DNA from: Bradyrhizobium ivorense
Lineage (GTDB): Bacteria > Cyanobacteriota > Cyanobacteriia > PCC-6307 > Cyanobiaceae
Direction: 5' to 3'
DNA: 64,000 nucleotides
Assembly (NCBI GenBank): GCA_943368005.1
Contig: CALRKN020000008.1
Span: forward strand, 75,705 to 139,704
Under the pieces are notes generated by a model that worked only from the letters and a program-made list of their open reading frames with translations, was not told the DNA's origin and did not search any database. The position numbers were made by a program, and so were the translations under genes. Positions 12,235 through 51,093 of the stretch are shown here, piece after piece (position 1 is the first letter of the stretch; every line of letters begins with the position of its first letter).

Positions 12235-12286
12235 CGTTCCCTCACCCTTGCTCTGCAGGGCCCAACTTTGCCACGTGGCGCAGGGT

Positions 12287-26586: not shown

Positions 26587-27306
26587 ATGTTTGGCTGGGC
26601 CTCACCACAACCGATTCCCCCCCGCCTGGAGGAGCTGCTGGAACGGGCCGGGGCGCTGCGCAGCGAGTGGTTTGAACGCCGGGGCAGCGACGTGGTGGTC
26701 TTCCTTCCTCCCCACCTGCTGCTCTCCACGGGCAGGCTGCCCCATGCCGCCATCCTCGCCAGCTACCGGATGCTGGACGGCTGCGGCCACGGGCCCGAGG
26801 TCCCAGCCCCCCCCTTGCTGCTCAATGGGGAGCGGCTGCTGAGCCTCAGCGCCGACGAGGTGGCCAGCTGGCAGCCCTGCCAGCCCCTGCCGAGACCCTG
26901 CCCCCTCGGCTCACCGCCGCAGCTGGCTGCTGCCCTGACGGCAGCACTGCTGGCGGCGGATCCGCACCTGGCCCAGACCTACCAGACACTCGACGCCCGT
27001 TCGGAGCGGGGTGGGGCGGCGGCCGATCTCCACTACCGGGACCGGATGGGCTGCCACAACCCAGACGAACTGGTGCAGAGCTGGAACCAGCACCTGGAGC
27101 GCAGCCAGGCAGAACATGATCTTGCCCTGCTGAGGCAACAGCTGCTGGATCTGGAGCGGGAATGCGAGCGGCAGTTCCTCACCTGTCGTGAAGCAGACCG
27201 CAAGCTGGGCTGGCAGCGGCAGGTGAGCCAGAAAACCGGCGCACAGCTGCATCGCTACAGCGATCTGCTGCAGCGGCTGCTGGTGATCCAGGGCCGTGTG
27301 CTGTGA
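26587..27306 (+). CDS. Hypothetical protein with C-terminal coiled coil (family A, copy 1); coupled to the downstream CgeB-like GT
   Basis: 239 aa. The C-terminal heptad-like stretch is LERSQAEHDLALLRQQLLDLERECERQF. The shared block AALLAADPHLAQTYQTLD matches 37643..38467 and 42326..43093. The stop overlaps the next start (GTGA). Confidence 0.55.
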   Translation: MFGWASPQPIPPRLEELLERAGALRSEWFERRGSDVVVFLPPHLLLSTGRLPHAAILASYRMLDGCGHGPEVPAPPLLLNGERLLSLSADEVASWQPCQPLPRPCPLGSPPQLAAALTAALLAADPHLAQTYQTLDARSERGGAAADLHYRDRMGCHNPDELVQSWNQHLERSQAEHDLALLRQQLLDLERECERQFLTCREADRKLGWQRQVSQKTGAQLHRYSDLLQRLLVIQGRVL

Positions 27307-28262
27307 CGCGGATTGTCGTGAGCAGCGGCACCACCGACGCGCACAACACCAACCACCGCCTCAGAATACGGATCAGCCACGGATTCCAGGAACTGGGGCT
27401 CCCCAGCCGCTCCTGCGCAGTAGAGCAGATCCCCACCCTGGTGCGCCGCGAATCCGTTGATCTGCTGCTGATCACGGGCTCGATCGCGGATCCGGCGGTG
27501 GATCTCCCCTGGCTGATTCGGTGCGCGCAGCAGCAGCACTGCCGCGTGGCCTTCTGGCTGCACGACGACCCCTATGAGTTCGATCTGCACTGGCGGCTCG
27601 CCGATCTCGGCTGTCCGGTGTTCAGCAATGAGCCGAATTGCCTCCCCTACTACCCACCCAGCTGTCGAGCCCGGCCCCTGGCCCTGGCCGCCTCTCCCCT
27701 GGATGATCTGCCGGTGGGGCCAGCAGAAGAGGCACCGGAGGTGGACCTGGCCTTCTGCGGAGTCGCTTTCCCCCAGCGCGTTGCCACGCTGCGGCAGCTG
27801 GGGGCTGCGGGCTTCCGCCTGGCCTGCTGGGGGGAAGGCTGGCCGGACGATCTCGAGGGAGGCGTGAACCTGCGGCTGGGTCCCGCCGGGCTGAGGCAGC
27901 TCTACCGCCGCTGCCTGTTCGTGGTGAATCTGGGCCGGGAGCTGGCCATCGCCAACCGGCGCCATCAGATCGCCGCCTCCATGCCTGGTCCACGCACCTT
28001 CGAAGCCGCCCTGTTCGGAGCTGTGCAGCTCTACCTCGGCCAGAGCCCGAGGATCGGCCAGTACTACACCTCCGAGCAGGGGGTGATCCCAGCCGGCAGT
28101 GTGGAGGAGGTAGGAGCATGGCTGGAGCGGGCCAGGCGGGAACCCCAGTGGCACCGGCAGCTCGGCGACGCTGCGGCCCAGCACACCCGGCGCCGGCATC
28201 TCTATCGGCACCGCTGCCACGACCTGCTGGCCGCGCTGCACGGCGACGGTGAATCGGCATGA
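27303..28262 (+). CDS. CgeB-family / Glyco_trans_1_2-like glycosyltransferase
   Basis: RVAFWLHDDPYEFDLHWRLADLGCPVFSNE, DLAFCGVAFPQRV, PGPRTFEAALFGAVQLY (the N/PxRxFE..G motif of CgeB-like proteins). Confidence 0.65.
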   Translation: MTRIVVSSGTTDAHNTNHRLRIRISHGFQELGLPSRSCAVEQIPTLVRRESVDLLLITGSIADPAVDLPWLIRCAQQQHCRVAFWLHDDPYEFDLHWRLADLGCPVFSNEPNCLPYYPPSCRARPLALAASPLDDLPVGPAEEAPEVDLAFCGVAFPQRVATLRQLGAAGFRLACWGEGWPDDLEGGVNLRLGPAGLRQLYRRCLFVVNLGRELAIANRRHQIAASMPGPRTFEAALFGAVQLYLGQSPRIGQYYTSEQGVIPAGSVEEVGAWLERARREPQWHRQLGDAAAQHTRRRHLYRHRCHDLLAALHGDGESA

Positions 28263-30634
28263 GGCTGCTGCTCTACGACACGGAGATGCGGTCGGCCAAC
28301 GGCTATCTGCCACGGGCCATCGCCACCGCTGCCGAGGGGCTGCTGGGCCCGGCCCATGTACGCCTGTGCGACCACGCCACAGTGGTGGGTCTGGCGGCAT
28401 CGGGGGCCTGGGATGGCCTGCTGGCCATCGGCGGGGCCGGCGCCGATCTCCATCTGATCACGGCCCTGATGGAGACACCGATCCGGCGCATTCTCTGGAC
28501 CACGGAGGACCCCTACGAACGGCGCCTGCTGGAACGGGTGGAACCGGCCTTCCACCATGTGTTCAGCAACGAGCAACTCTGTGGCGGGGTGAGCCCGCAC
28601 ACCACGTTCCTGCCCCTCGCGGCGGAACCCTCCCTGCACCAGCGGCCCCTGCGAACCCGTGACAGCGACTACCTGGTCGACCTCACCTTCGTCGGCACGG
28701 CCTGGCCCAACCGGGTGCGCAGTCTCAACCGCCTGCTCCGCCAGCTGCCGGCCGATCTGCGGCTCCACCTCTGCCTGCCCTGGAACCGGCACATCCCCGA
28801 GCCCCAGCTGCCCGGCATCGGCGTGCTGCCCCAGCAGCGCTTGGGCATGGCCGATCTCTGCGACATCTGGAACCGCTCCCGGGTGGTGCTGACGATCGGC
28901 CGGGAGTTCACGGCGGCCGGATCGGCCAGTGCGCAGGCGCGGGGAACCTCACCGCCCCCCCGGGTATACGAAACGGCCCTGGCCGGAGGCTTTCAGGTGG
29001 CCCTGGCCGGGGCGGGCATGGAGCTGGAGGCGGCCTACGGCAACCGGATTCCCATCGCGGCCGATGAAGCTGAGGCGGCCGCCCTGGTCGTGGCCCACCT
29101 GGCAGACCCCGACCAGCGGATCGCCCGGGCCGCGGAAATTCAGGCGCATACCCTGGCACACCACACCTATGGCCATCGGCTCGCCGCGGTGCTCGACCGG
29201 TTTGCAAGCCTGTCCGCCAGCCGGGACCAGCCGGCGATCCAGCTGCCCCGCAGAGAGCCAGCCGTACTGCACCTCGCCCACAACCTGGTGGGACTGGGCC
29301 TGCGGCGCCCCGGAGGCACGGAGGCGTACGTGCAGGAGATTGCCCTGCAGCAGCAGCGGAGCAGACCGAACCGAAGGGTGCTGGCCCTGGCACCGAAGGA
29401 TGCGATCCGGCTGGCTCTGCTGGACTACGGGCCGGATCGGGCCCAGTTGCTGGACACGATCCGGTTGGGGCGGGTCAGTCGGCTGTCGGGCAGCAATCAG
29501 ACCTATGAACGGGCCTTTGCCCAGGTGATCAGCAGCCAGGGCATCGGTCTGGTGCACGTGCATCACCTGATCGGCCTGCCCCTGAGCCTGCCGATCGTGG
29601 CCCGGGCCCTGGGTTGCCGCGTGGTGCTGACCCTGCACGACTTTCACTTCGTCTGCCACCGCTACACCCTGCTGACTCCGCAGGGGCAGTTCTGTCGCAT
29701 CGATGCGCAGGACAACCCCGCCATCAGCTGCCGCCTCTGCCTGCAGGCCAGCGGCATGCGGGGCGACGAGCGCCAGCGGCGGCTGGCCCTCACGCGCCGC
29801 AGCATTGCCGCTGCGGACACGATCTTGGCCAGTACCGCCAGCAGCGCGGAGCTCGTGGCGGCGATCTACCCAGAGGTGGCCGATCGCATCCAGGTGCTGG
29901 AGATGCTCACTCCCGGCCTGGAGGAGCTGGACCGCGCCCGGCGCAAGCGCACCTGGAGCCGACACCCAGGCCCCCTTCAGGTGGGTGTGATCGGCAATGC
30001 CGTGCCCCACAAGGGCCTCGCCACCCTGGTGCAGGTGATCCGGGCAAGCCACGACCTGCCCATCGATCTGCACATCCTGGGGGCGACGCCCGAACTGCAC
30101 GAGGCGCTGCGGGAGGCAGGCCTGTCGAGCGGAGATCCCCCGATCATGAGCTACCAGGGAAGCTACGGTCGCCCCGAGCTGATCGCCCGACTGCTGCAGC
30201 TGGATGTGGCCCTGTTCCTCTCCACCTGGCCGGAGACCTACAACATCTGCCTGGGCGAGGCGATGCGACTGGGGGTGGTGCCGGTGGCCACCGACCTGGG
30301 GGCTCACCGCGACAGGGTGAGGGATGGGGAGACCGGCATCCTGGTCAAGGCCGACAACCCACTGGAGGTGATCCAGGCTCTGCTGACGCTGCAGGGCGAC
30401 CGGCAACTGCATGCCCGGCTTGCCGCTGCTGCCGCCGCTGTACCCCTGCAGAGCAGCGCCTGCCACGGGGAGCAACTCGAGGCGATCTACGCCCGGCTGG
30501 CCCCCTGGCGAGGCCAGCACAGAATTGAGCCACCGCTTCGCCTGGATTCCCAGCTCGAACTCGAGGCCCTCGGCCTGCGCCTGGCCCAGAACCGCTGGGG
30601 TGAGCCGGGCGTGAGCTGGGACGAACCAGCCTGA
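28259..30634 (+). CDS. 791-aa bifunctional glycosyltransferase: CgeB-like N-terminal domain + GT4 (GT-B) C-terminal domain
   Basis: The N-terminal domain is paralogous to the previous ORF: RRILWTTEDPYERRLLERVEPAFHHVFSNE, DLTFVGTAWPNRV, PPRVYETALAGGFQV. The C-terminal domain is GT4: HVHHLIGL, GNAVPHKG, FLSTWPETYNICLGEAMRLGVVPVATDLG. ATGA overlap with the upstream gene. Confidence 0.8.
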   Translation: MRLLLYDTEMRSANGYLPRAIATAAEGLLGPAHVRLCDHATVVGLAASGAWDGLLAIGGAGADLHLITALMETPIRRILWTTEDPYERRLLERVEPAFHHVFSNEQLCGGVSPHTTFLPLAAEPSLHQRPLRTRDSDYLVDLTFVGTAWPNRVRSLNRLLRQLPADLRLHLCLPWNRHIPEPQLPGIGVLPQQRLGMADLCDIWNRSRVVLTIGREFTAAGSASAQARGTSPPPRVYETALAGGFQVALAGAGMELEAAYGNRIPIAADEAEAAALVVAHLADPDQRIARAAEIQAHTLAHHTYGHRLAAVLDRFASLSASRDQPAIQLPRREPAVLHLAHNLVGLGLRRPGGTEAYVQEIALQQQRSRPNRRVLALAPKDAIRLALLDYGPDRAQLLDTIRLGRVSRLSGSNQTYERAFAQVISSQGIGLVHVHHLIGLPLSLPIVARALGCRVVLTLHDFHFVCHRYTLLTPQGQFCRIDAQDNPAISCRLCLQASGMRGDERQRRLALTRRSIAAADTILASTASSAELVAAIYPEVADRIQVLEMLTPGLEELDRARRKRTWSRHPGPLQVGVIGNAVPHKGLATLVQVIRASHDLPIDLHILGATPELHEALREAGLSSGDPPIMSYQGSYGRPELIARLLQLDVALFLSTWPETYNICLGEAMRLGVVPVATDLGAHRDRVRDGETGILVKADNPLEVIQALLTLQGDRQLHARLAAAAAAVPLQSSACHGEQLEAIYARLAPWRGQHRIEPPLRLDSQLELEALGLRLAQNRWGEPGVSWDEPA

Positions 30635-30846
30635 GGGCGTCCATCCAGCCCGGCGGGATGGCAGCCGCTCAGATAGGAGCCCAGAGCCCTTCATTCCTGC
30701 AGTCTCTTTGCTGGGAAAATCCCGAAGGCAAACGGAAGTGAATCGAACGATTCACACCTTCAGCGGCGTGGTTGGAGGGATGCACCGCTGCCGCTCAGAC
30801 GTCAATCAACGGCAGGCCCCGATCCTGACCAAGCCCAGTTCAAGGG

Positions 30847-31041
30847 CTATTCACCCTCATCAAGGGCCGGGGTGGAAGCCTGCCCATCCCGCAGATCTTC
30901 CACCGTAATCGAATAGCCGAGCTCCCTGGCCAGCTCCACGGCAGCACGGTAGCGGGCATGGCGCAGACGAAGCCGCAACAAGCGGTCGTGACGCAGACGG
31001 AAACGAAAATCGCGGTAATCCGGAGAAGGTTGATTCGTCAC
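30847..31041 (-). CDS. Small hypothetical protein (64 aa), Arg-rich, with a Nif11-like helix segment
   Basis: The ORF lies in a lower-GC intergenic-like stretch. AAVELARELGYSITVEDLRD resembles the Nif11-domain core. Weak call. Confidence 0.3.
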   Translation of the reverse strand: MTNQPSPDYRDFRFRLRHDRLLRLRLRHARYRAAVELARELGYSITVEDLRDGQASTPALDEGE

Positions 31042-31094
31042 GGACTGGCCAGCAGAGAGCAGATGATCATCACCGAAGATCTTGGATAAACGGC

Positions 31095-32039
31095 TCAGAA
31101 TGCCGAGTGGGCTTCCGGAGAAAATGCCAAAGCCATAGCGAATTCATCGCCAAGATTATAAGCACGAACCCTGGTCGAGGCAGGGAGATAACCGAGGGCT
31201 ATCAGGCTCTTGATTACTTGCCTTAAGCTTTCACTCGTGAACTTCCAACAATGAACATCAACATATGGATTATCTTGAAATTCATGGCAAGCATGCTCCA
31301 ATCTGTCACGAAGATTCATGGGCAGCTGGATAGCTGGGTCGGGGGCAGTTCGCCAATCTGAAACCGTGAAGCAACGGTGCTCAAGGATGGATTCAAGAGC
31401 CGGCTTGGTTCGACCTTCCAGATGGGCCGCCAGAACATTCACAAGGCGGGAGGGAGCCAGGTACCGGTCAAAACAGCGGCGTCGATCCGGGATCGAGCAC
31501 AGATAGAGACCGTGGGGATTGAGCAACCTGGCAACCTCTTGTAGATGGGCCACCAAATCAGGCTGGTGCTCCAAACAGTGCTGGGAAACGACAGCATCAT
31601 ATCTTTGATTGATTTGCCCATAACCCCCATCGGAGAGCACAAACCGAATCGGCGGCACGGTATCGGGATTACGCCCTGGAATGTCCCTGGCCCTTGCCAC
31701 GAGCTCAGCAGTGCCCAGATAGTCTGCGTAATCAATAGCAACCGCGGATCCACGCAAAAACTCCACCGCAGGTCGGTCGAAAGGCCCGATCTCCAACACG
31801 GAGCGACACGGCTGCAGACAGTGGAGCAGGTTGGCCCAGTTGCTCACCGTGGAGGCATTCTCACCACCGCGTCGGCCAGCTTTGTGCCAATGCTGCCGTA
31901 GCTCGGAACGGCGTAATCCTTCCAGCTCCGAATAGCGCTCCCTGTAACTACAGGGATCGAATGCTGGCGGGAGGGTAAACACGCAGATGCGAAATGCTTG
32001 CACCACCTTAGCCGACTGACCATCAGCCGAGACCCACAA
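31095..32039 (-). CDS. Class I SAM-dependent methyltransferase
   Basis: Motif I-like VLEIGPFDRPAVEF. Post-I/II blocks: YDAVVSQHCLEHQPDLVAHLQEVARLLNPHGLYLCSIPD. TTG start at 32039, uncertain. Confidence 0.7.
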   Translation of the reverse strand: MWVSADGQSAKVVQAFRICVFTLPPAFDPCSYRERYSELEGLRRSELRQHWHKAGRRGGENASTVSNWANLLHCLQPCRSVLEIGPFDRPAVEFLRGSAVAIDYADYLGTAELVARARDIPGRNPDTVPPIRFVLSDGGYGQINQRYDAVVSQHCLEHQPDLVAHLQEVARLLNPHGLYLCSIPDRRRCFDRYLAPSRLVNVLAAHLEGRTKPALESILEHRCFTVSDWRTAPDPAIQLPMNLRDRLEHACHEFQDNPYVDVHCWKFTSESLRQVIKSLIALGYLPASTRVRAYNLGDEFAMALAFSPEAHSAF

Positions 32040-32127
32040 GAAGGACGCTGGAAAACCAGTGATAATGCTGAGACCAGAAGTGGAAGCCTCGCGATTCAGG
32101 CATGAAAACTTACGCTAAACTGAACAG

Positions 32128-33588: not shown

Positions 33589-33951
33589 TGGCTGTGCTGA
33601 TCAACCCGGTCCATCAAGTCCAACGGGTCTCTTCAGGGCCTGCCTGGCTCGGCGGTAGCCGCTTCCCATGGATGGCGATCCCTATGCTTGCCGACAGTTT
33701 CCAGCCCTCGCCCGCCTCCGACTCGATCGCCATTCCGTCCCCAGTGGCATCGATGCCAAGGGAGTGGGATTCATCGTCTCGTCAGTGGCGAGGGTGGGGC
33801 ACCCAGCATGGCTCGGCCAGGGGAACGCTTGAAGTGACCTGATGGACAGAGGAAGTCCGCCGATGTCAACGCTGCCAACCCCGTTGCCCGGGCCCATGGA
33901 TGGCCCGGGGTTCCGTCACCCAGGTGCCATGGACAGGACCGTGAATGGGGC

Positions 33952-36615
33952 TTGGTGCCATGCCTGGCGGCACAGCATGGGACTGGAGACTTGAACACGA
34001 ACCAGTCCGTCACCCTGTCCGTGCCGCTGCTCTGCCGAGGGGATGCGGAACAGCTGGATCTCTCCCTAAGCAGCATCGCGGTGGCCGCCAAGGCCACGGG
34101 ACTCTGGCTCGAGGTGCAGGTGGTGCCGTGGCAGCTCACGCCGTCTGGACTGGAGCGCGTCACCGCTGCCCTCGCGTCCCATGGGCACCTGATCTGGCTG
34201 GAGCACGACGCCCCCAGCGAAGCGGCCGCCCTGAATCAGGCCTGGCGCCAGGCGCGGGGAGCGTGGATCTGGTGGCTGGAAGCGGGCGACCAGCTCGTGG
34301 CGGGAGCCCTGGGCACCTGGCTGGACATCGTCAGCCAGCAGCCAGATCTGTTGCTGGTGGCCGGCGAAGGAGAACATCTCGATGGGGACGGCCAGGTGCT
34401 CAGGCGCCATCGCGCCCTGCCCACCAGCACCTGGGTGCCGCAACTGACGATCCAGGGGCTGTATTGCCCGGGAGCGATCGTGTGGCGGCACAGCCTGCTG
34501 GCCCTCTCCGGTCCGCTGCGGGAACAGCACGATGCGTCCCACCTGCAGCTCAGCCTGATGGAAACCCTCAGAGCACACAGCCCGCGGTGCCTGGCGGTGC
34601 CCGAGCTGTGGGTACGCACCCGCAGCGCCAGCGATTGGCAGGCCCCGGGACGGTGCCGCGGCCAGGCGCTGAGCCTCACCCAGTGCCTGGCCGGACAGCT
34701 CGGCGACTCGCCCGGCGACATGCTGCACAACTATGGGCTGCAGCTCCAGCGTGGGGAGGCCCTGCCCCCTCCCGGCCGCACCTGGCTGGAGGAACTGGCG
34801 GATGCCATCACCACGGCCGAACCGCTGCTCAGCGCAGCCACCCTGCTGCGGCTGCGGCAGGGCTGGGGCCTGGATCTGGAGGTGCAGCCGTGGCAGGAGC
34901 TGCTAGAAACCCACTTGGCCGAGGCCCGGCTGGAAAACCTGTGGTGCGTGACGCTGCTGCGCAGCCTGCTGCATCCCGAACTGGGAGCCCTGCAGCTGGG
35001 CTCGCCCTGGGGCCCGAACCTGCGACTGGCCGGGCGACTGCTCAGTGCCGAGCTGTGGGGGCAGTACCGCCTGTTGCGCCAGGACGCTGGGGTCCTGGAG
35101 GTGCTCAACCGGCCGGTGCGGGGATTGCCACTGATCGGCCTGCTGCACTGGCTGGAACAGCCCCAGCTGCAACAGCGGTTTCCCCTGCCGGAGGCACTGC
35201 ATCCCTATGGCCGCTGGTGGGCCGACCACGCCCAGGCCGAGCTTAGCCATATCCGTTTTGGTGCAAGTGGCCTGATCGAGGCAGAGCCTTTCGAGGAATA
35301 CTCCGGGTTGGCGCAGGGTGAGCGACCCTTCGGGGTGAATCTGATCGGCCATGCCTTCGAAGTGTTCGGCATCGGCGAAGACGTGCGGATGGCCGCCCTG
35401 GCCCTGAGGAGTGCGGCAGTGCCCTTCTGCGTTGTGAATGTGCCTGCCAACAACGGCGCCTCCAGAGGCGACCGGAGCCTCGAACCCCAGACCCTGCCAC
35501 CGGGAAAACTCGGTCCCTACCGGTTCAACCTGGTGTGCCTGGCCGCCCCGAGCCATGGGGCCTGGATCGCCCGGGAGGGGATGGCCCAGCAACGGGGACG
35601 CACCACGATTGTGGCCTGGCCCTGGGAAACCCAGACCTGGCCCAGGGCGTGGGAATGCCTGATCCCCCTGGCTGATGTCTTCTGGCCTTCCAGCACCTTC
35701 ACCGCCCAGGCACTCAAGCCCTTCAGCGATCCCTGCCGGCGACCCATGCAGGTGATGCCCATGGCCGTTCACATTGACAGTCCGGAGCAATACCGCCAAA
35801 CAGAACGCCGCCAGGCAACCCGGGAGCGATGGGGCCTGGATCCGGCTGCAAAATTGGTGTTGTTTGTCTTTGATGTCAAGTCGTCGCTGGCGCGCAAAAA
35901 CCCCTGGGGCGCTATTGACGCCTTTCAACATGCATTCAGCGAGAGAAAATCAAATCAGGTGCAACTGGTCATCAAGGCCTTGCGGCCCATAGGTCCCAAT
36001 GCCGAATGGGAAAAATTGCAAAGACAAGCAAGCGAAGACCCCCGCCTCATGCTCATCGACAAAGACCTTGAGCGACAGGAATTGCTCGAGCTGATGGGTT
36101 GCTGTGATGTATTCCTTTCCATGCATCGCAGCGAAGGGTTTGGCAGAGGAATTGCCGAAGCGGGGATCCTCGGACTTGAGGTTGTCACCAGCAGCTTCGG
36201 TGGAAATGCTGACTTTTGCCTGGGCAGCTCCTTTTACCTGGTGACCTGCAGTCCCTCGGCCATCACCGCCAACGCCTACCCCCAGGCGGAGGGGCACATC
36301 TGGGGAGAGCCGAATCGTGAAGAGGCCATCCAACACCTTCAGCGAGCCACAAGGAGCCAGCCCCCCGTGCCTGCGGTGCAGAACTCCAATCCGATCCTCG
36401 ATCAACTGACCAAGGAAGCCTGCGGCCAGCGCTACGTCGAAGAACTGAACAAGCTTCTGCACCTCCTGACTCTCCGCCTGGACAACCAACCGTTTCCAAC
36501 GGCCGTCCCGGAGAGACCCGCGCCGGGCCCGGAGGCACGTGACTATCCAGAACCCTTTGCCGACCTGGCCTATGCCGGAAAAACGGCAAGAGACAGCAAC
36601 AAATCCAACCATTGA
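33952..36615 (+). CDS. 887-aa bifunctional glycosyltransferase (GT2-like N-terminal + GT4 C-terminal)
   Basis: N-terminal: VTLSVPLLCRGDAEQLDLSLSSIAVA, WIWWLEAGDQL. C-terminal GT4: FGVNLIGHAFEVFGIGED, LVLFVFDVKSSLARKNP, DVFLSMHRSEGFGRGIAEAGILGLEVVTSSFGGNADF. The start is uncertain (TTG at 33952 or TTG at 33991). The 3' end overlaps the convergent gene by 46 nt. Confidence 0.75.
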   Translation: MVPCLAAQHGTGDLNTNQSVTLSVPLLCRGDAEQLDLSLSSIAVAAKATGLWLEVQVVPWQLTPSGLERVTAALASHGHLIWLEHDAPSEAAALNQAWRQARGAWIWWLEAGDQLVAGALGTWLDIVSQQPDLLLVAGEGEHLDGDGQVLRRHRALPTSTWVPQLTIQGLYCPGAIVWRHSLLALSGPLREQHDASHLQLSLMETLRAHSPRCLAVPELWVRTRSASDWQAPGRCRGQALSLTQCLAGQLGDSPGDMLHNYGLQLQRGEALPPPGRTWLEELADAITTAEPLLSAATLLRLRQGWGLDLEVQPWQELLETHLAEARLENLWCVTLLRSLLHPELGALQLGSPWGPNLRLAGRLLSAELWGQYRLLRQDAGVLEVLNRPVRGLPLIGLLHWLEQPQLQQRFPLPEALHPYGRWWADHAQAELSHIRFGASGLIEAEPFEEYSGLAQGERPFGVNLIGHAFEVFGIGEDVRMAALALRSAAVPFCVVNVPANNGASRGDRSLEPQTLPPGKLGPYRFNLVCLAAPSHGAWIAREGMAQQRGRTTIVAWPWETQTWPRAWECLIPLADVFWPSSTFTAQALKPFSDPCRRPMQVMPMAVHIDSPEQYRQTERRQATRERWGLDPAAKLVLFVFDVKSSLARKNPWGAIDAFQHAFSERKSNQVQLVIKALRPIGPNAEWEKLQRQASEDPRLMLIDKDLERQELLELMGCCDVFLSMHRSEGFGRGIAEAGILGLEVVTSSFGGNADFCLGSSFYLVTCSPSAITANAYPQAEGHIWGEPNREEAIQHLQRATRSQPPVPAVQNSNPILDQLTKEACGQRYVEELNKLLHLLTLRLDNQPFPTAVPERPAPGPEARDYPEPFADLAYAGKTARDSNKSNH

Positions 36616-37646
36616 GAAGCCAAGGAATCACCACTGCGGTGCTCCCAGAGATAGAGGTGGATGGCCCGGGCTTTTCGCCGTAATCGGCGTCGATGATGGT
36701 GGGCCCAAAGAATCTGTTCAGCCCACTGGCCAGGTTCCGCCGCGAAGGCCAGACCGGCATCGAGCAGGTCCTGATAGGCCGGCCCCGGCGAACAGAGAGT
36801 GGGCACTCCCATCGCCGCATAGTCGAGCAGCTTGAGATCGCTCTTGGCACCATTGAAGGCGTTCCTCACCAAGGGAGCTAAGCCCAGGTCGTGGCGGGAC
36901 AGCCGGCGCAACCAGCGCACAAAGCGGGGGTAGCGACGGGCCTCGGGGGGAACGTCCACCACATCCAACCAGGACCGCTGCAGCGGCTGGCTGAGGCCAC
37001 CTACCAGCGTGAGGCGAAAGGCACGGGAATCGCGGGCTGCCAAGGCATCAAGCTCCGGCAGGATCAGGGCCAGATCCGCATCATGGGTGCGGCTGCCCAT
37101 GTAGAGCAGCTGCAGCGGGCCCTCTGCCTCAGCGCGGGGGAAGCGCTCCATCCCTTCCCAGAGCCCCGAATCCAGAGCATTGGCCAACACGGCATCGGCA
37201 CCGGGGGCCTGGCCAAGGGACATGATCCGTTCACGGCACCGCTGGGCCAGGGACGGCGTGGAGAACACACGTAAGTCTGCCTGGCCGATTAACAGATCCA
37301 GCGCAGGCAGGGCAGGAGCGTAGCGCTGCTGCTCGGGGTGCTCGGCGGGCAGGGCAAACAGGGCATCGTCCAGGTCCAGGATCAGGGGTAAGCGCTGCTG
37401 GCGGCAGGTCTGCACCAGGTCATGGGCAAGGTCGCCGCTTGGGCAGGCGGCCCGCTGCACGATCAGCCGATCCAGGCCCGCTGCGGAGATGTCCGGGACT
37501 GCCTGCCGTGCCGAGGGTTCCAGCTGCACCACCTCGCAGCTGCCTTGCTGCTGGAGTCGCTGCAAGGGCAGCAGCAGCCGAATCCAGGCAGAACTGGTGA
37601 GAGGTCCACCGGGTGCCTGGGCCAGCAGGCCGACCCGCAGAGTCAT
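36570..37646 (-). CDS. Glycosyltransferase (GT-B-like), 358 aa
   Basis: RVGLLAQAP...SAWIRLLLPL, LILDLDDALF, LLYMGSRTHDADL, GLAPLVRNAFNGAKSDLKLLDYAAMGVPTLCS. ATGA overlap with the upstream coiled-coil ORF. Confidence 0.65.
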   Translation of the reverse strand: MTLRVGLLAQAPGGPLTSSAWIRLLLPLQRLQQQGSCEVVQLEPSARQAVPDISAAGLDRLIVQRAACPSGDLAHDLVQTCRQQRLPLILDLDDALFALPAEHPEQQRYAPALPALDLLIGQADLRVFSTPSLAQRCRERIMSLGQAPGADAVLANALDSGLWEGMERFPRAEAEGPLQLLYMGSRTHDADLALILPELDALAARDSRAFRLTLVGGLSQPLQRSWLDVVDVPPEARRYPRFVRWLRRLSRHDLGLAPLVRNAFNGAKSDLKLLDYAAMGVPTLCSPGPAYQDLLDAGLAFAAEPGQWAEQILWAHHHRRRLRRKARAIHLYLWEHRSGDSLASQWLDLLLSLAVFPA

Positions 37647-38467
37647 GCCAGAACCTGGGCCATGCGGGCCTGGACCCGAAGGCTGGCGTCGCTACCGGTG
37701 GCAACCAGCTGCTCCAGCAGAGCCAGGCGACGGGCCAGGTGCTCCAGGTCCTGCTGTTGGGCCAGCACCGTGAGCTGCAGTTCGCTGGAGCGCAGCTGGA
37801 GCGCATCGACTTGCTTCAGCTCGGTCTTCACCAGGGCGAGCTGCTCCCCCAGCGCGAAAGCCTCACCTTGCTGGTGCCGCAGTGGTTCCAGCTGGCTGGC
37901 CAGCTCCATGAAGTCGGATTCCAGGAGCCTGAGCTGCTGGCGGAGCTGGAACAAGGCATCCCATCGGGAAGCCCGGCGATAGCGGTCCAGGCAATGGAGG
38001 TCGGGAGGGCGCTGATCCAGGGCAGCGGCCAGGGGATGAGTTTCCAGCGACCGATAGATCTCCAGCTGCTCGGGGTGCTCCTCCAGCAATGCAATCGCCA
38101 GCAGAGCATCCAATGGGTCGGCCTCGACAAAGCGGGGCTGGGACGCCAACGGCGGGGGCGACGACGGATCGACGCACCATGCCACCAGCGCCGGCACCTG
38201 AACACAGCTGAGATTCAACAAACGACAGCGCTGGCCCGCAGCGACCAGCTCGGGGAGGGCAGCCAGCACCTCGGAGCCGTCGGAGCCGGGTGCTGGCAGC
38301 TCCGGCGCCTGAACCCGAACCAGAGGATCGGCGTAACCAAGCAACAGCGGCACATCGGGCTGAATGCCCGTGCACTCGGGCACGCTGAGCACCGAAAGCT
38401 GGGCCCTCTTCAAGTCCTCCGCTATCCAGGACGCATCCAGCCCCGGCGACCAGATCTGGATCCTCAC
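37643..38467 (-). CDS. Hypothetical coiled-coil protein (family A, copy 2); coupled to the downstream GT
   Basis: 274 aa. AIALLEEHPEQLEIYRSLE block, then a long heptad-like C-terminus (LRQQLRLLESDFMELASQLEPLRHQQGEAFALGEQLALVKTELKQVDALQLRSSELQLTVLAQQQDLEHLARRLALLEQL). Confidence 0.55.
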   Translation of the reverse strand: MRIQIWSPGLDASWIAEDLKRAQLSVLSVPECTGIQPDVPLLLGYADPLVRVQAPELPAPGSDGSEVLAALPELVAAGQRCRLLNLSCVQVPALVAWCVDPSSPPPLASQPRFVEADPLDALLAIALLEEHPEQLEIYRSLETHPLAAALDQRPPDLHCLDRYRRASRWDALFQLRQQLRLLESDFMELASQLEPLRHQQGEAFALGEQLALVKTELKQVDALQLRSSELQLTVLAQQQDLEHLARRLALLEQLVATGSDASLRVQARMAQVLA

Positions 38468-38912
38468 GTCAACGCCAGGCCGAGCTGCTCCTTACTCTCG
38501 CAGCAATGAGGTCTGGCGGAGCGGAACGACCTCCAGACAGAGGCCCCGGTGAACCAGCAGCCAGAGGGATGCGCCCGCCCCAGGCCCTGAACATATCCAC
38601 CGCCAGATCGGTTTCACCCGGCACTCCCTCATCCCACAGACGCTTCCGCGGCTGCCACGGGAATTGACGGCTGCTCGTGCCGCCATCAATCCTTGTCTGG
38701 CGGAGCCGCCAGCCGATCTACTGGCAAAACTGCGGAAATGTGTTGATGGCGGGAGTGAGCCCTCATGAATGCAGGAGAAGGTAGGCTGCCACCGAAGAGG
38801 TCGCCTGGGGGAGGCCAGATCAGCCGCCGCCAACTGGTCCGATGGGCAGCAGACATAATCCTGGGTAATCGATCAAAAGATGAATACCACTTCTGGAGAA
38901 ACAAGAAGTCAC

Positions 38913-40931
38913 CTACCGAAGACCCAGCAGGGAAAACCCCAGACAGGAGTGCCAATTATAGAAACGAAGCAGCAGATCGGTGGCATACCCACCGAGCCCA
39001 CCGCGGGGGTCCCTCAGAAATGAACATGCCTCAATCTTGGCAGAGGTGCAATTGGAAAAGCGCACCCACTGATCAAAGGAATCATCGTCCAGCTTGCCTT
39101 GCATAATCAAATTAACAAGTGGCGACAACATCTCAGCGAAGAGCATGGAAAACACAACCGGCAAACCGATCACAAGCTTCTCCCTGCGGTCACCCACTCG
39201 CTGAGTCAACAGTCGAATACTGCGCTCAAACTCCTGCAAAGCAAACGTACTGGCATCATCAAAAAAGCAATACGGATTCAACTGTGAACGCAGACAAAGG
39301 TGGGGCATGGGCTCTGGAAAGTTCACCTGCATACCATTGGGCGTCAAAAGATGATCAGCAAAGATATCAACAAATAACGACAAACGAGAGGGAAGCAGGC
39401 CATCCAACTTGTCCCGACAACCAGGATAAACGACTATAGGGAAAATGGAAAGACAGGAATACGGAAGGAAGTCGGGCGGAATGGGCATGTGCGCCAGAGA
39501 CCTGCGAACAAGACCAGGGAACTCATTGGCAATTGCACAACACGAGTCGGCATCGATCTTAACCTCCTGCTTCTGAATCTCAAAAGGCAATGAATAGCGA
39601 AAACCAAGAAGATAGTTACCAATCGGCTCATAGAGATCCTTGGCACGGGATCCCCCCAAGGGAAGAGCCCCATGCACACGCGACAAAGGAGAGCTACCAC
39701 TCAGAACTTGCAGTATGGATTCTACATAGGAACGAGGAGAATGATGCTTAACGATATACTCTTGGCGTACTGAACGCTGAAGCAGGGAAGAACCATGGCT
39801 CAAAGAGGCAATATCAATTCCATCAAAAGACTGAAGCCCGGGCGGATAAACTGCCACAAGGGAAGGTGGGAGCTCAAGGTAAGCACCATGTCCCGCCACA
39901 ATTGGACACGCTCCGCAGGACAGAGCCCGCAAAACAGTGCCGCTTGACTCTCCAGACGCCGCATCCCGATAGGCCCAAACATAATCAACCCCACTCAGGA
40001 TCTCCACCAAGGAAGACTCAGAGACAAATCCTTGATCATCAACAGTGACCGAATCACAAAGAATAGAGAGCTCGTTGAGCGAAGCCAATGCATACTCGTT
40101 ATTCCTGCCTGCAACCGTTAGACGAACATGGCACGAACGAGAAAGCTGCTCCACAAAAGAGAGCAACAATCCAATATTGACACTGGTGTCAACGCTAAGG
40201 CCGTACAAAGCAATTCGTACGGTCTCCTGGAGCACGAAGGAGTCCGCACCAAGAGAGGCCTCACTGGGGGAGGCAGCATCAGGAAAACTTACGGGAGTGT
40301 CATGGGGGAGGGGCAGCACATGAATATCCTTAGTGCAATCAACTAAATCAAGTGATCGACGAATAAGTTTCTTTGCAGCCTGCGAATGACACACCACGAC
40401 GTCGTAATAGCCAAGAATAGATCCAAGAAGATACTCACTTTGGCGCACAACATCCATCGAGAGAAACGTCCTCCTATCCGAGGCGGGCAAGACCTCAGTC
40501 ACCAGAAGAATTGAACAATACCTCAACAAGTCATCGCTAGATGAATCTGATAACGGAGGCAAAGAACCATGCGAAAACTGATGATAAACTTGGAGCAGGT
40601 GTCCTGTGACATTGCGAATAGATGGATCGTGGACAATCCCAACCAAAGTCGGACGGGAAAATCCAGCCTGAGAAATACGGAGAGCAGCGAAAATGGCCGC
40701 GATGTGATTGAATGCAATATTTTTATTATTGACAATATTCGCGCAGATTCCTCCATTTCCTGAAGGAAAGAGCGAAGTCAAGGAATCCGAGAATAAATTT
40801 CGAAAAGAAGGACTTAGATGCTCAATCTGTAGCCCATTTGAAGACGCAACCAAGCGCTGACAGAAGTTGCCTACATCACTATGGGTGACTGGATCGCCAA
40901 ACAGAACAAGCGCAGATATATCATTACTCAT
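38913..40931 (-). CDS. 672-aa protein: GT4-like glycosyltransferase N-terminal ~400 aa + unknown C-terminal domain
   Basis: Low-GC ORF. GT-B C-terminal motif: VDYVWAYRDAASGESSGTVLRALSCGACPIVAGHG. The start overlaps the upstream stop by 8 nt. Confidence 0.65.
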   Translation of the reverse strand: MSNDISALVLFGDPVTHSDVGNFCQRLVASSNGLQIEHLSPSFRNLFSDSLTSLFPSGNGGICANIVNNKNIAFNHIAAIFAALRISQAGFSRPTLVGIVHDPSIRNVTGHLLQVYHQFSHGSLPPLSDSSSDDLLRYCSILLVTEVLPASDRRTFLSMDVVRQSEYLLGSILGYYDVVVCHSQAAKKLIRRSLDLVDCTKDIHVLPLPHDTPVSFPDAASPSEASLGADSFVLQETVRIALYGLSVDTSVNIGLLLSFVEQLSRSCHVRLTVAGRNNEYALASLNELSILCDSVTVDDQGFVSESSLVEILSGVDYVWAYRDAASGESSGTVLRALSCGACPIVAGHGAYLELPPSLVAVYPPGLQSFDGIDIASLSHGSSLLQRSVRQEYIVKHHSPRSYVESILQVLSGSSPLSRVHGALPLGGSRAKDLYEPIGNYLLGFRYSLPFEIQKQEVKIDADSCCAIANEFPGLVRRSLAHMPIPPDFLPYSCLSIFPIVVYPGCRDKLDGLLPSRLSLFVDIFADHLLTPNGMQVNFPEPMPHLCLRSQLNPYCFFDDASTFALQEFERSIRLLTQRVGDRREKLVIGLPVVFSMLFAEMLSPLVNLIMQGKLDDDSFDQWVRFSNCTSAKIEACSFLRDPRGGLGGYATDLLLRFYNWHSCLGFSLLGLR

Positions 40932-42342
40932 GGATAGCTCTCATCGAAGATTCAGCAGCACATAGCACAGCCGCGTCAAACTCAGAGATCCACTTACTGT
41001 ATACAGAAGCATAGGCATCCGTAAGACCTTCAACATAACCAGGGTTCTCGAGCCGAGTTTTCAGCCTCAAGATTGCCGCCAAGAATGTATCACTCGAATC
41101 AAAGATATAAACATAATCATCAAGACCATCTAGGGATACACCTTCAATGCCCTTTGCCGTTGACAAGATAGGTTTTCTTCGGTAAATCGCCTCAAAAGCC
41201 TTCAAGCGACTACCTCCGCCATGCAAAAGAGGAATCAACATGGCATTGGCTTGAGAATAGACTTCATCCAAATCGCTGGCATAGCCTAAATAATGAACAG
41301 CACCTTGCTCATCATAGGTAGGCATAAGCAGCTCCGAACCCTTACCATAAATATTCACAGCAACTAATGCACTGAGCTTTGAAAGATTTGGGATGTATAC
41401 TTGGTCATGAAACCACTGAACACCAAGCGAGTTGGGGAGGTATGAGCAATCTCCAACAAATGAAATGTTTAGCGGCTCATTACTATTCATGCCAGCTAAA
41501 AATAGGGCTGGCAAAGTAGCTGAGTCTTGATCTCTTGATATCACGTTGGGAGCCACGGATATAAGTGCATCTGGGTTAACTGCTGCAGCCCGCACCATGT
41601 CCTGATCTGTCGTTACAAGGATATTCGAGAACTGGGAGATGATCTTCTCCTCGATTAACCTCATATACCGCCAATCCCCGTGAACTGATCGGGCTTCAAC
41701 TGCAGCACCAATCTGCAGCTCACGGAGAATCATCCACTCGACATTATGCATGGATAGCAGGGAAGGGATGCCATGCATCGTGGCAATCCATTCGTACATC
41801 CCCATGTAGGAAAACTCTGCCCAGAATAAATCGGGCCTATATCTTTGAATCACCAAGGATAACAACGCCGAGAGCTCTGGGGTTAGATATCCAGCATAAT
41901 GATGATCAATCTTAGAATGGTGCCCCGCAGGAAACACAGCATGCAAGCACTTTACATGGATCCAATCATCATCAATCAAAGAGATCTTATACGGGTCCCT
42001 GGAAATAAAGTGTGGACATAGCTCAAGGGTGATTAAATTATAGTGCTGTCGCAGGCACGAACAAATATTTTGAGTTCGGATTGCGCCTCCCTGGCTACGA
42101 CCAAAAAACAAATACGGTGATAGAAGGAGAATTGTTTTCCGAGACCTCTGGAATGAAAATGCAGCTAGACCTTGGCGCAATCCCGAGGAATGCAAGTGAT
42201 TCAATATACTTAATCGCTGATTGTTCTCAATCCCTAGCTTTGGATTGGGGTTAAACTTGCTATTCTGATGGAAGTCACAGAGTTGCAGATAGTAGTGGTC
42301 ATGGGGCGAGGGAGAAAACTCATGCTTATCCATGAAGGTCAT
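40924..42342 (-). CDS. Glycosyltransferase family 4 (GT-B)
   Basis: ANAMLIPLLHGGGSRLKAFEAIYRRKPILSTAKGIEG (EX7E-type region). The N-terminal LLLSPYLFFGRSQGGAIR is typical of the GT4 acceptor domain. Confidence 0.75.
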   Translation of the reverse strand: MTFMDKHEFSPSPHDHYYLQLCDFHQNSKFNPNPKLGIENNQRLSILNHLHSSGLRQGLAAFSFQRSRKTILLLSPYLFFGRSQGGAIRTQNICSCLRQHYNLITLELCPHFISRDPYKISLIDDDWIHVKCLHAVFPAGHHSKIDHHYAGYLTPELSALLSLVIQRYRPDLFWAEFSYMGMYEWIATMHGIPSLLSMHNVEWMILRELQIGAAVEARSVHGDWRYMRLIEEKIISQFSNILVTTDQDMVRAAAVNPDALISVAPNVISRDQDSATLPALFLAGMNSNEPLNISFVGDCSYLPNSLGVQWFHDQVYIPNLSKLSALVAVNIYGKGSELLMPTYDEQGAVHYLGYASDLDEVYSQANAMLIPLLHGGGSRLKAFEAIYRRKPILSTAKGIEGVSLDGLDDYVYIFDSSDTFLAAILRLKTRLENPGYVEGLTDAYASVYSKWISEFDAAVLCAAESSMRAIHE

Positions 42343-43093
42343 CGACAGGCCGACCTGGAGACTGATGCTTGTTCGCTGAAAAAAGGGCAGATATGAGCTG
42401 AATAAATCTATACTGACTATGTCGATACTGCTGAATCAGCCCCAATGCCTTTGACTCTTTGAGTGTCATCTGAGAATGAGAACCGAGAAGCATTGAATCA
42501 AGCTTTGCACAGTGCTCATCAGATTCTCTCAAATGCCCTAAAGCAATAGCAAGCTTTCTGCGAAGACGATTTGAGCTATCATGATAGTCGCGCGACCAAC
42601 AATCCAAGACTGAGTTTACGGTGATATTCAGTGCTAATCTGTCGACGCAATCAAAGTCAGGTTCAGATCCAAATCTGATACTCTTATCTTCTAGAAAGCG
42701 GTATGCAGCTGCAAGTTGTGGCGAAAGCCTGAGAATCTCTTTCGTAAGGATTGACAGAACAGGATCTGAAGAATTAGGGAGGCCAATTGATTCGTGCCTA
42801 TAATCGGACGACTGAGTATCGATCAGATTCCTTACTGCTGCCAGCGGAATTTTTTCAAATCTCCAAAGAGCGCATATGAAATATCCTCGCTCGGCAAGCG
42901 CATATGCATTCATTATGTCTTCCACTGATTTAGCGCTTTCCGTGAATATACTCTCCAGGCCAGGATAGAGTACTAGTGTATGATTTCTATCGCTTTGATT
43001 TATAGAAACTTTCTTAAGCCCAGCTTGGTGAAGCAGATCCAAACCGGCTTGAGAAACCGCATGAGGCCCAATCCAGCTCAACAGTCTTGCCAT
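42326..43093 (-). CDS. Hypothetical protein (family A, copy 3); coupled to the downstream GT4
   Basis: 255 aa, low GC. The N-terminus LSWIGPHAVSQAGLDLLHQAGL and the block ILTKEILRLSPQLAAAYRFLED are collinear with copies 1 and 2. Overlaps the next gene by 17 nt. Confidence 0.55.
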   Translation of the reverse strand: MARLLSWIGPHAVSQAGLDLLHQAGLKKVSINQSDRNHTLVLYPGLESIFTESAKSVEDIMNAYALAERGYFICALWRFEKIPLAAVRNLIDTQSSDYRHESIGLPNSSDPVLSILTKEILRLSPQLAAAYRFLEDKSIRFGSEPDFDCVDRLALNITVNSVLDCWSRDYHDSSNRLRRKLAIALGHLRESDEHCAKLDSMLLGSHSQMTLKESKALGLIQQYRHSQYRFIQLISALFSANKHQSPGRPVDDLHG

Positions 43094-51080: not shown

Positions 51081-51093
51081 GCCCGGTCCCCCG

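What the first reader, a model, noticed from the sequence alone, without database searches (positions are those of the whole stretch)
26587..43093. A recurring two-gene module: 'family A' coiled-coil protein translationally coupled to a downstream glycosyltransferase (three copies)
Three ORFs share an N-terminal W..P......L(L/I)..AG(L) segment, a central block, and Gln/Leu/Glu-rich heptad-like C-termini. The ORFs are 26587-27306 (+), 37643-38467 (-) and 42326-43093 (-). Their central blocks are AALLAADPHLAQTYQTLD, AIALLEEHPEQLEIYRSLE and ILTKEILRLSPQLAAAYRFLED.

Each lies immediately upstream of a different glycosyltransferase and overlaps its start: GTGA into 27303, ATGA into 37646, and 17 nt into 42342. 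One copy lies in the low-GC block and two lie in high-GC DNA, so the pairing has been maintained across compositionally different segments.

In ABC-dependent O-antigen systems, a coiled coil (WbdD) acts as a molecular ruler or scaffold for the polymerase. By analogy, these could be GT-specific adaptors, scaffolds or chain-length determinants.
Basis: partly seen in the sequence, partly recalled or inferred. Interest (0 to 1): 0.7.

Follow-up and report, generated by a model that had tools for sequence, protein, structure and literature searches.

The report
Unannotated head-plus-helical-tail family in glycan locus
Three distantly related genes in a picocyanobacterial surface-polysaccharide gene cluster encode an undescribed small protein family (a globular head and a long helical tail) that probably acts as a non-enzymatic scaffold or length-setting partner for the sugar-polymerising enzymes, although pairing with the gene immediately downstream is not a universal rule.

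Summary
**Observation.** It holds. ORFs A (26587-27306 +), B (37643-38467 -) and C (42326-43093 -) are real genes and remote paralogs. Profile-profile E-values are 2e-7 to 3e-5, and no other window ORF matches. Each overlaps the start of a different, mutually unrelated glycosyltransferase (GT).

**The family.**
- It has no Pfam or NCBIfam model and no PDB relative by sequence or fold.
- A full HMMER profile search finds 235 representative clusters. Every source that could be placed is a picocyanobacterium.
- The architecture is a ~155-aa alpha/beta head (AlphaFold2 pLDDT 94 for A, 88 for C) and a helical tail of about 70 to more than 600 residues.
- No member is fused to a GT.

**Context.** All members examined lie in polysaccharide loci resembling the ABC-transporter-dependent type (KpsC/KpsS, ABC-2 permease, RgpF-type GT, rml genes).
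- A GT follows directly in only 11 of 21 contexts, about the GT density of these loci.
- In three genomes A and B are simply convergent neighbours.
- The steadier partner of A-type and marine members is the large RgpF-type GT. It is the adjacent, divergent gene in eight context groups, one gene away in two more, and start-overlapped in marine relatives.

**Reading.** The best fit is a WbdD-like scaffold or ruler accessory without a recognisable catalytic head. Strict GT-specific adaptors are less likely. Function is inferred, not shown.

The parts
26587..27306 (+). Family member A (239 aa): alpha/beta head 1-155 and one long helix 159-238.
   Evidence: ORF. 49 homolog clusters. AlphaFold2 pLDDT 94.2. 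Position-3-biased substitutions against orthologs. No Pfam or NCBIfam hit.
27303..28262 (+). GT319, a Glyco_trans_1_2 glycosyltransferase. Its GTG start overlaps A's stop by 4 nt.
   Evidence: Pfam 2e-19. Junction sequence. The pairing is conserved in L004-7, L009, L010, L021 and L014.
23067..26519 (-). 1150-aa GT2 + RgpF-type glycosyltransferase, divergent from A across 67 nt. It is the most consistent neighbour of A-type members.
   Evidence: Pfam RgpF 2e-25 and GT2. Orthologs lie next to A homologs in L001, L002, L004-7, L009, L010, L013, L014, L020 and L021. Marine L022-24 have a family member whose stop overlaps the start of a 976-aa RgpF GT.
37643..38467 (-). Family member B (274 aa): head and a ~110-residue tail with heptad periodicity.
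   Evidence: 61 homolog clusters. hhalign to the A family E 5.7e-7. Heptad periodicity p <= 0.003.
36570..37646 (-). GT358, a GT-B glycosyltransferase with weak Glyco_trans_1_2/1_4 matches. Its ATG overlaps B's stop (ATGA).
   Evidence: Orthologs directly after B in L018/19 (83% identity) and L020 (69%).
42326..43093 (-). Family member C (255 aa), a divergent copy inside the low-GC island.
   Evidence: Only 2 close homolog clusters. The A-family HMM hits it at 4.6e-12. hhalign 2.3e-7. AlphaFold2 pLDDT 87.9 with the same secondary-structure order as A.
40924..42342 (-). GT472, a GT4/GT1 glycosyltransferase. Its start lies 17 nt (or 8 nt) inside C.
   Evidence: Pfam Glyco_trans_1_4 5e-11. Junction sequence.
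46928..50304 (-). GT2_820 (47842-50304) and a 316-aa protein (46928-47878; only a sub-threshold GT2 match). In relatives these lie directly upstream of B. Here the low-GC island separates them from B.
   Evidence: Pfam. Orthologs GT2(785-817 aa) -> 299-301 aa -> B in L001 and L002.
38838..46927 (.). Low-GC island (44-50% GC) carrying a 672-aa protein with no Pfam match, GT472, C, a methyltransferase and a GT61. An exact 19-nt direct repeat (38819-38837 / 47864-47882) brackets the island plus the 316-aa gene.
   Evidence: Composition. Pfam. Repeats.
10189..14494 (-). KpsS-like (10189-12234) and KpsC-like (12287-14494) Capsule_synth genes. They mark the locus as resembling the ABC-transporter-dependent capsule type.
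   Evidence: Pfam Capsule_synth 5e-57 and 4e-79.
55495..56544 (-). ABC-2-type permease (Wzm/KpsM-like; weak Pfam match), near the far end of the locus.
   Evidence: Pfam 2.5e-5. 41% identical to the ABC2_membrane gene of marine locus L022.

Best explanation
A, B and C are paralogous members of an undescribed picocyanobacterial protein family. Each has a ~155-residue alpha/beta head with no recognisable catalytic signature, a helical stalk of very variable length, and a short C-terminal stretch that is conserved in A and B but not C. There is no transmembrane segment.

The most likely role is as cytoplasmic accessory subunits of the machinery that polymerises a surface glycan in an ABC-transporter-type pathway. 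They would oligomerise through the stalk and hold or space glycosyltransferases, above all the large RgpF-type GT, relative to each other or to the membrane. In working principle this resembles the WbdD/WbbB coiled-coil scaffold-rulers, but with no enzyme on the same polypeptide.

In this genome the ancestral convergent A/B pair has been pulled apart by an inserted ~10-kb GT cassette. A third, horizontally acquired copy (C) arrived with its own GT cassette.

**Shown:** homology, gene reality, predicted fold, genomic context.
**Inferred:** oligomerisation, GT binding, any effect on chain length.
For: **A real, separate family**
- Profile homology among A, B and C.
- 235 representative clusters in a full HMMER search.
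- No Pfam or NCBIfam model.
- No PDB relative by sequence or by fold. Best Foldseek E-values are 0.4 and 0.055, to generic Rossmann-like folds.

**Architecture**
- Confident AlphaFold2 models with head and long helix.
- Members range from ~200 to 834 aa. The extra length is helical or coiled-coil sequence, often with repeated EEAELTLLQLHQVQEELEHYFL units and no other domain.
- No hydrophobic segment long enough to span a membrane.

**Context**
- Every contig of at least ~10 kb places a member in a glycan locus with KpsC/KpsS, ABC-2 permease with or without an ABC ATPase, rml genes and RgpF/WsaF-type GTs.
- The RgpF-type GT is adjacent to A-type members in nearly all loci. In marine relatives its start is overlapped by the family member's stop.
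- A and B co-occur as a convergent pair in the window, L001, L002, L013 and L020.

**Literature**
- Extended coiled-coil proteins are described as a characteristic marker of chain-length control in ABC-transporter-dependent glycan assembly (PMC11231755).
Against: - There is no direct evidence of protein-protein contact, oligomeric state or phenotype.
- Heptad periodicity is statistically clear only for B. A and C rest on AlphaFold2 helices.
- Near-invariant polar residues in the head (Y132, E/D136, D147, R153) could mark a catalytic or ligand site. The head might therefore be a new enzyme rather than a passive scaffold.
- In known rulers the coiled-coil protein carries the terminating enzyme. 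None is recognisable here.
- The window itself has no ABC ATPase gene and only a weak ABC-2 permease match.
- Adjacency to GTs is near the base rate in these GT-dense loci.
Confidence: 0.45

Rival explanations
1. Each family member is a dedicated adaptor or activator for the particular GT encoded immediately downstream, with the two made in fixed ratio through translational coupling. This would be comparable in logic to the auxiliary proteins that activate some natural-product GT-B enzymes, such as DesVIII for DesVII (from memory).
For: - Three of three overlaps in the window.
- A-GT319 is kept down to ~52% GT identity in L014. B-GT358 is kept in L018/19 and L020.
- The marine member overlaps the RgpF GT start.
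- C arrived in an island together with its own GT.
Against: - A and B have no downstream GT in L001, L002 and L013.
- The Aphanothece A-homolog precedes a different GT.
- Long-tailed members are followed by convergent proteins with no family match.
- 11 of 21 contexts is about the GT density of the loci.
- There are no fusions to GT domains among 20 long members scanned.
Confidence: 0.2
2. The head is a new chain-terminating or chain-modifying enzyme, or a glycan-end-binding module, held at a distance by the stalk. That would make it a true functional equivalent of WbdD or of the K. pneumoniae O4 ORF7 terminator, with an unrecognised fold.
For: - Near-invariant polar residues Y132, E/D136, D147 and R153 across 142 representatives.
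[quoted passage not shown] New terminator folds are still being found, for example GT137 (PMC11231755).
- Stalk length varies by repeat number.
Against: - The head is small (~155 aa) and has no nucleotide-binding or other cofactor motif that any library recognises.
- Other strongly conserved motifs differ between subfamilies: NGERLL and SERGG in A against RLVNLSC and HPLAAALD in B.
- Three different terminators in one locus would be unusual.
Confidence: 0.2
3. The proteins have a role unrelated to glycan polymerisation, such as regulatory, cytoskeletal or chromosome-associated. This is what the database names 'chromosome segregation ATPase' and 'SbcCD ATPase subunit' suggest. Their position in the locus would then be incidental.
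For: Sources give such names to long members. Coiled coils are functionally promiscuous.
Against: - Those names derive from coiled-coil composition. The two family-wide Pfam scans found no ATPase domain, and the window's only G-x4-GK[ST] match lies in an unrelated ORF.
- Members are located in polysaccharide loci in every informative context, across organisms of 51-70% GC.
Confidence: 0.08

Closest known systems
WbdD (E. coli O9a / K. pneumoniae O3 O-antigen chain terminator and coiled-coil molecular ruler)
   Same: - Cytoplasmic, with no transmembrane segment.
- N-terminal globular part followed by an extended C-terminal helical stalk.
- Encoded in a locus resembling the ABC-transporter-dependent type.
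- A separate polypeptide from the polymerising GTs.
- Stalk length differs between homologs (PMC11231755).
   Different: - WbdD's head is a methyltransferase plus kinase of several hundred residues. Here the head is ~155 aa with no methyltransferase or kinase match.
- There is no sequence or fold similarity to any PDB entry.
- The window's stalks are short (70-110 residues).
- Several paralogs occur per locus.
WbbB (K. pneumoniae O12 / Raoultella terrigena) and K. pneumoniae O7 ORF6: terminator, coiled coil and polymerase GTs in one polypeptide
   Same: A coiled-coil spacer combined with GT2/GT1 modules in an ABC-type glycan pathway. In marine relatives the family member is directly start-overlapped with a GT2+RgpF protein, so the two may act as one unit.
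   Different: No family member carries a GT or terminator domain on the same chain. The GT modules are separate genes.
K. pneumoniae O4 ORF7 (GT137 Kdo-transferase terminator with C-terminal coiled coil)
   Same: A standalone protein with an initially unannotated N-terminal alpha/beta domain and a C-terminal coiled coil. It lies in a locus where polymerase modules are separate proteins (PMC11231755).
   Different: ORF7 has two beta/alpha/beta domains plus a TPR-like bundle and proven CMP-Kdo transferase activity. The head here is a single small alpha/beta domain with no shown activity. I could not compare the sequences directly.
Polysaccharide co-polymerases (Wzz, KpsE)
   Same: Helical, coiled-coil-rich proteins linked to glycan chain length or export.
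   Different: Those are inner-membrane proteins with transmembrane helices and periplasmic coiled coils. A, B and C have no transmembrane segment and no Wzz or related Pfam match.

Membership tests
WbdD-type terminator/ruler | N-terminal methyltransferase and/or kinase catalytic domains | tested here: not met
   No Pfam or NCBIfam domain in A, B, C or in 8 typical relatives. No PDB sequence or fold match.
WbdD-type terminator/ruler | Extended coiled coil C-terminal to the head | tested here: inconclusive
   AlphaFold2 predicts a long helix in A (159-238) and in C (159-206 and 213-242). The heptad test is significant for B only. Relatives have coiled-coil-like tails of up to ~650 aa.
WbdD-type terminator/ruler | C-terminal membrane-binding amphipathic helix and polymerase-recruitment site | not testable with these tools
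   A C-terminal L..RL..LQ.R-like motif is conserved in A and B, and basic tails occur in long members. No binding test is possible.
WbdD-type terminator/ruler | Encoded in an ABC-transporter-dependent glycan locus | tested here: met
   KpsC/KpsS and an ABC-2 permease are in the window. Wzm plus an ABC ATPase lie in the loci of relatives. Caveat: the window has no ABC ATPase gene.
WbbB / O7-ORF6-type single-polypeptide assembly proteins | GT modules on the same chain as the coiled coil | tested here: not met
   20 long members were scanned and none has a GT domain.
Polysaccharide co-polymerase (Wzz/KpsE) | Two transmembrane helices flanking a periplasmic coiled-coil domain; Wzz Pfam domain | tested here: not met
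   The maximum Kyte-Doolittle 19-residue hydropathy is 0.96-1.49. No Pfam hit.
Glycosyltransferase (any CAZy fold) | Recognisable GT-A, GT-B or GT-C domain | tested here: not met
   No Pfam GT hit. Foldseek top hits are generic Rossmann-like folds at E >= 0.05. The head is too small for a complete GT fold.

The most novel reading that the evidence does not exclude
The family is a new class of catalytically silent, modular 'stalk' subunits for glycan assembly. A and B would form a hetero-oligomeric coiled coil that bridges the two large GT2-type enzymes of the conserved locus frame (RgpF-1150 and GT2-820). Stalk length, set by the number of LQLHQVQEELE-type repeats, would tune surface-glycan chain length in picocyanobacteria, and horizontally acquired cassettes would bring their own stalk protein (C). 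Alternatively, the head is a previously unseen terminator fold.
Probability: 0.15. Interest if true: 0.7.

Novelty: new variant of a known kind. Interest (0 to 1): 0.45.

Why it matters
Picocyanobacteria (Synechococcus, Cyanobium and relatives) are major primary producers. Their surface glycans determine phage adsorption and grazing resistance, yet how these glycans are assembled and measured is largely unknown.

This family is an unannotated, lineage-wide component of their main ABC-type glycan locus. If it acts as a ruler or scaffold, it would extend the coiled-coil chain-length principle, so far established in enterobacterial O antigens, to a protein with no enzyme on board. It would also give a directly testable handle on glycan length in these organisms, because the stalk can be engineered. 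At the least, it merits a family definition in the domain databases.

Tried and rejected
**Shadow-frame artefact: rejected.** Homologs are conserved and substitutions are position-3 biased.

**Known-domain assignment: nothing found.**
- Pfam at E up to 1, and NCBIfam.
- PDB sequence profile search.
- Foldseek against the PDB for two confident models.
- PDB search with the LQLHQVQEELE motif, and a literature search for that string.

**Rosetta-stone fusions to GT domains among long family members: none.** The extra length is coiled coil only.

**The LQLHQVQEELE motif elsewhere in the window.** I searched for it in other window proteins as a possible docking partner. There was no significant hit.

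**Paralogy of the large neighbouring proteins.** I tested the N-terminal ~590 aa of RgpF-1150, GT2-820 and the island's 672-aa protein, looking for a symmetric module. No similarity appeared beyond a non-significant (E 0.15) alignment of the two GT2 domains.

**Remnant of the 316-aa gene upstream of B.** Such a remnant would explain the 19-nt repeat. None was detectable.

**Technical limits.**
- The search for related loci with the combined alignment failed for lack of a conserved stretch. With the A family alone it returned only 5 genomes.
- Two context look-ups fell on contigs too short to be informative.
- The window was searched for an ABC ATPase by its Walker A motif, and none was found.

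Full report
**1. The observation**

The three ORFs are present exactly as reported (translations). I read the junctions directly.
- A's stop and the GTG start of the next gene share GTGA at 27303-27306.
- B's stop and the next ATG share ATGA at 37646-37643.
- The gene after C starts at an ATG 17 nt inside C, or 8 nt inside if the second in-frame ATG is used.

The three downstream genes are glycosyltransferases (GTs) by Pfam. GT319 hits Glyco_trans_1_2 at 2e-19. GT358 has borderline Glyco_trans_1_2/1_4 matches. GT472 hits Glyco_trans_1_4 at 5e-11 and also has a sub-threshold GT4 (Glyco_trans_4_4) N-domain match. They are not similar to each other. C lies in DNA of 44-47% GC. A lies in about 71% GC and B in about 63-67%.

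**2. Are A, B and C related?**

Pairwise BLASTP is marginal: A-C 7e-5, B-C 0.003, A-B not significant. Profiles settle the question.
- Homolog searches gave 49 clusters for A, 61 for B and 2 for C.
- An HMM of the A homologs, searched against all 389 stop-to-stop ORFs of the window, hits C at 4.6e-12 over nearly its full length and B at 1.5e-4. The next ORF scores 0.8.
- hhalign gives A-family vs B-family 92% probability and E 5.7e-7. C vs A is 93.5% and 2.3e-7 over 222 columns. C vs B is 74% and 2.9e-5.

Across 142 representative members these are W4, L18, G22, Y39, P42, Y60, W95, P126, Y132 (99%), L135, E/D136 (99%), D147 (95%), Y150 and R153 (96%), in A numbering.

The ORFs are genes, not shadow frames. 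Differences from orthologs fall mainly on codon position 3, for example 37/23/89 for A vs L004.

One caveat applies to the 'heptad' description. A crude a/d periodicity test against shuffles is significant only for B's tail (p <= 0.003). It is not significant for A or C, and C's tail is not Gln/Glu-rich.

**3. What the proteins look like**

AlphaFold2 with the family alignment gives a confident model for A (pLDDT 94.2, pTM 0.74). It has a small alpha/beta head (three strands with flanking helices, residues 1-155) followed by one uninterrupted helix, 159-238. C gives the same order of elements, with helices 159-206 and 213-242 (pLDDT 87.9).

Foldseek against the PDB finds nothing significant for either model. 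The best E-values are 0.4 and 0.055, to generic Rossmann- or flavodoxin-like folds. A profile search of PDB sequences finds only chance leucine-zipper matches. There is no Pfam or NCBIfam hit for A, B, C or for eight typical relatives, even at E = 1. None of the three has a hydrophobic stretch long enough to span a membrane.

**4. The wider family**

A full HMMER search with the combined alignment found 235 representative clusters (at 50% identity) with E <= 1e-3. Lengths run from about 200 to 834 aa, with a median of about 280. The conserved domain is always N-terminal.

In 20 long members the rest of the protein gives only weak coiled-coil-type Pfam noise and no GT or other enzyme domain. 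Many members carry one to several copies of a near-identical unit, EEAELTLLQLHQVQEELEHYFL, and the longest contain large internal repeats. Stalk length therefore evolves by repeat number. A and B share a short conserved C-terminal stretch (L..RL..LQ.R in A and B), and long members end in basic tails.

Named sources are Cyanobium, Aphanothece and 'Prochlorococcaceae' MAGs, plus Tara Oceans marine contigs. I found no paper that describes the family.

**5. Genomic context**

The window carries a roughly 48-kb polysaccharide locus.

| Coordinates | Strand | Gene or feature |
|---|---|---|
| 10189-12234 | - | KpsS-like |
| 12287-14494 | - | KpsC-like |
| 14437-23037 | + | cytidylyltransferase, two DUF6716 GTs, NeuB-type synthase, two sulfotransferases |
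| 23067-26519 | - | RgpF/GT2, 1150 aa |
| 26587-27306 | + | A |
| 27303-28262 | + | GT319 |
| 28259-30634 | + | GT791 |
| 31095-32039 | - | methyltransferase |
| 32128-33588 | + | 486-aa protein, no Pfam match |
| 33952-36615 | + | GT887 |
| 36570-37646 | - | GT358 |
| 37643-38467 | - | B |
| 38913-46310 | mixed | low-GC island: 672-aa protein with no Pfam match, GT472, C, methyltransferase, GT61 |
| 46928-47878 | - | 316-aa protein (only a sub-threshold GT2 match) |
| 47842-50304 | - | GT2, 820 aa |
| 50298-54059 | mixed | further GTs |
| 55495-56544 | - | ABC-2 permease |
| 60580-61110 | - | DUF1997 protein |
| 61107-63857 | - | DEAD/DSHCT helicase |

(Sources.)

In Cyanobium CH-040 (L001), a 699-kb MAG contig (L002) and L013, the same frame is compact: RgpF <- -> 475-aa protein -> A -> <- B <- ~300-aa protein <- GT2 (~800 aa). 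A and B converge directly and no GT follows either. The window is that frame with two additions:
- a roughly 10-kb GT cassette between A and B;
- the low-GC island between B and the 316-aa gene.

Close and intermediate relatives share the expanded form.
- A -> GT319 -> GT~800 occurs in L004-7/L009, L010 and L021. A contig of 43% GC, L014, shows A -> GT319 before it ends.
- B -> GT358 occurs in L018/19 and L020.
- The Aphanothece A-homolog is followed by a GT887-like GT instead.
- Long-stalk members (746-834 aa) lie in loci with Wzm, an ABC ATPase, KpsC/KpsS, rml genes or WsaF. They are followed by convergent proteins with no family match.
- In marine contigs L022-24 (51% GC) a single 238-aa member overlaps by 4 nt the start of a 976-aa GT2+RgpF protein. 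That locus occupies the same chromosomal neighbourhood as the window: ABC-2 permease 41% identical, 411/439-aa protein 41%, DUF1997 protein, helicase 71%.

Counting non-redundant contexts, 11 of 21 have a GT directly downstream in the same orientation. About 15 of the ~27 genes in the window's cluster are GTs, so this is roughly the base rate. Three of three in the window has a chance probability of about 0.17.

The RgpF-type GT is the steadier partner. It is the adjacent, divergent gene in eight context groups (window, L004-7/L009, L010, L013, L014, L020, L021) and lies one gene away, across a 475-aa gene, in L001 and L002. In the marine loci L022-24 the family member's stop overlaps its start. 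The Aphanothece locus L008 lacks it.

**6. Interpretation**

Work on Klebsiella and E. coli O antigens describes an extended coiled-coil protein as the characteristic marker of chain-length control in ABC-transporter-dependent assembly. [quoted passage not shown]

The family described here matches that layout in four respects: a cytoplasmic head, a variable stalk, a conserved C-terminal end (in A and B), and the locus type. It fails the defining feature of WbdD or WbbB, because there is no methyltransferase, kinase or GT domain on the chain.

I therefore read A, B and C as accessory scaffold or ruler-like subunits of the polymerisation complex (confidence about 0.45).
The GT-less A/B pairs and the changed partner in Aphanothece weaken it (about 0.2).
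- The near-invariant Y132, E/D136, D147 and R153 keep open the possibility that the head is a new enzymatic or glycan-binding terminator (about 0.2).
- A role unrelated to glycans is unlikely, given the invariable locus context (about 0.08).

Oligomerisation, GT contact and any effect on chain length are all inferred, not shown.

**7. Novelty and verdict**

The family is unannotated and, within the libraries I could search, undescribed. Its probable role fits an established principle, so I class it as a new variant of a known kind. I score interest at 0.45.

The most novel reading still open is a catalytically silent, repeat-tunable ruler, possibly an A/B hetero-oligomer that bridges the two large GT2 enzymes. 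I give that a probability of about 0.15.

Noticed in passing
window 38819-38837 and 47864-47882; also 38968-38984 / 46970-46986: An exact 19-nt direct repeat (ATCAGCCGCCGCCAACTGG) brackets a 9,045-bp segment holding the 316-aa gene and the low-GC island. The copy at 47864 covers the start of the 316-aa gene. A perfect 17-nt inverted repeat lies just inside both ends. This may be a footprint of how the island was inserted. No remnant of a second 316-aa gene was found upstream of B.
   Followed up: partly
window 34903-35931 (-) and 35950-36612 (-): These two sizeable ORFs are antisense shadow frames of an 887-aa GT1 gene at 33952-36615 (+). That gene has 78-87% identical orthologs in related loci. 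B's operon therefore ends after GT358 and converges on GT887.
   Followed up: yes
related proteins P0147-P0254 (outside the window): Many family members carry one to several copies of an almost invariant 22-residue unit, EEAELTLLQLHQVQEELEHYFL, in the stalk. The window's A has only a degenerate version (LLDLERECERQFL). I found no literature or PDB match for the motif.
   Followed up: partly
window 55495-56544 (-) and 54056-55375 (-): The ABC-2-type permease is followed by a conserved 439-aa protein with no Pfam match (41% identical to its counterpart in marine locus L022), not by an ABC ATPase. No window ORF apart from the NeuB-region ORF 18140-21361 (+) has a Walker A motif.
   Followed up: partly
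window 10189-12234 (-): The KpsS-like Capsule_synth protein is fused to a C-terminal acyltransferase domain. The neighbouring KpsC-like gene has the usual duplicated Capsule_synth domain. A similar fusion is annotated in locus L017.
   Followed up: no
L022-L024 (marine metagenome contigs): These hold a compact version of the same chromosomal locus: rmlABCD, a GT2, two genes with no Pfam match, the family member overlapping an RgpF GT, two more genes with no Pfam match, the ABC-2 permease, a DUF1997 gene and the helicase. It looks like a minimal relative of the window's 48-kb cluster.
   Followed up: partly
window 18359-23037 (+) and 58183-59535 (+): A NeuB-type nonulosonic-acid synthase, possibly fused to CBS, SAF and xylose-isomerase-like (AP_endonuc_2) domains, together with two sulfotransferases, suggests a sulfated glycan containing a sialic-acid-like sugar. 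A BNR/sialidase-like protein lies at the edge of the locus.
   Followed up: no
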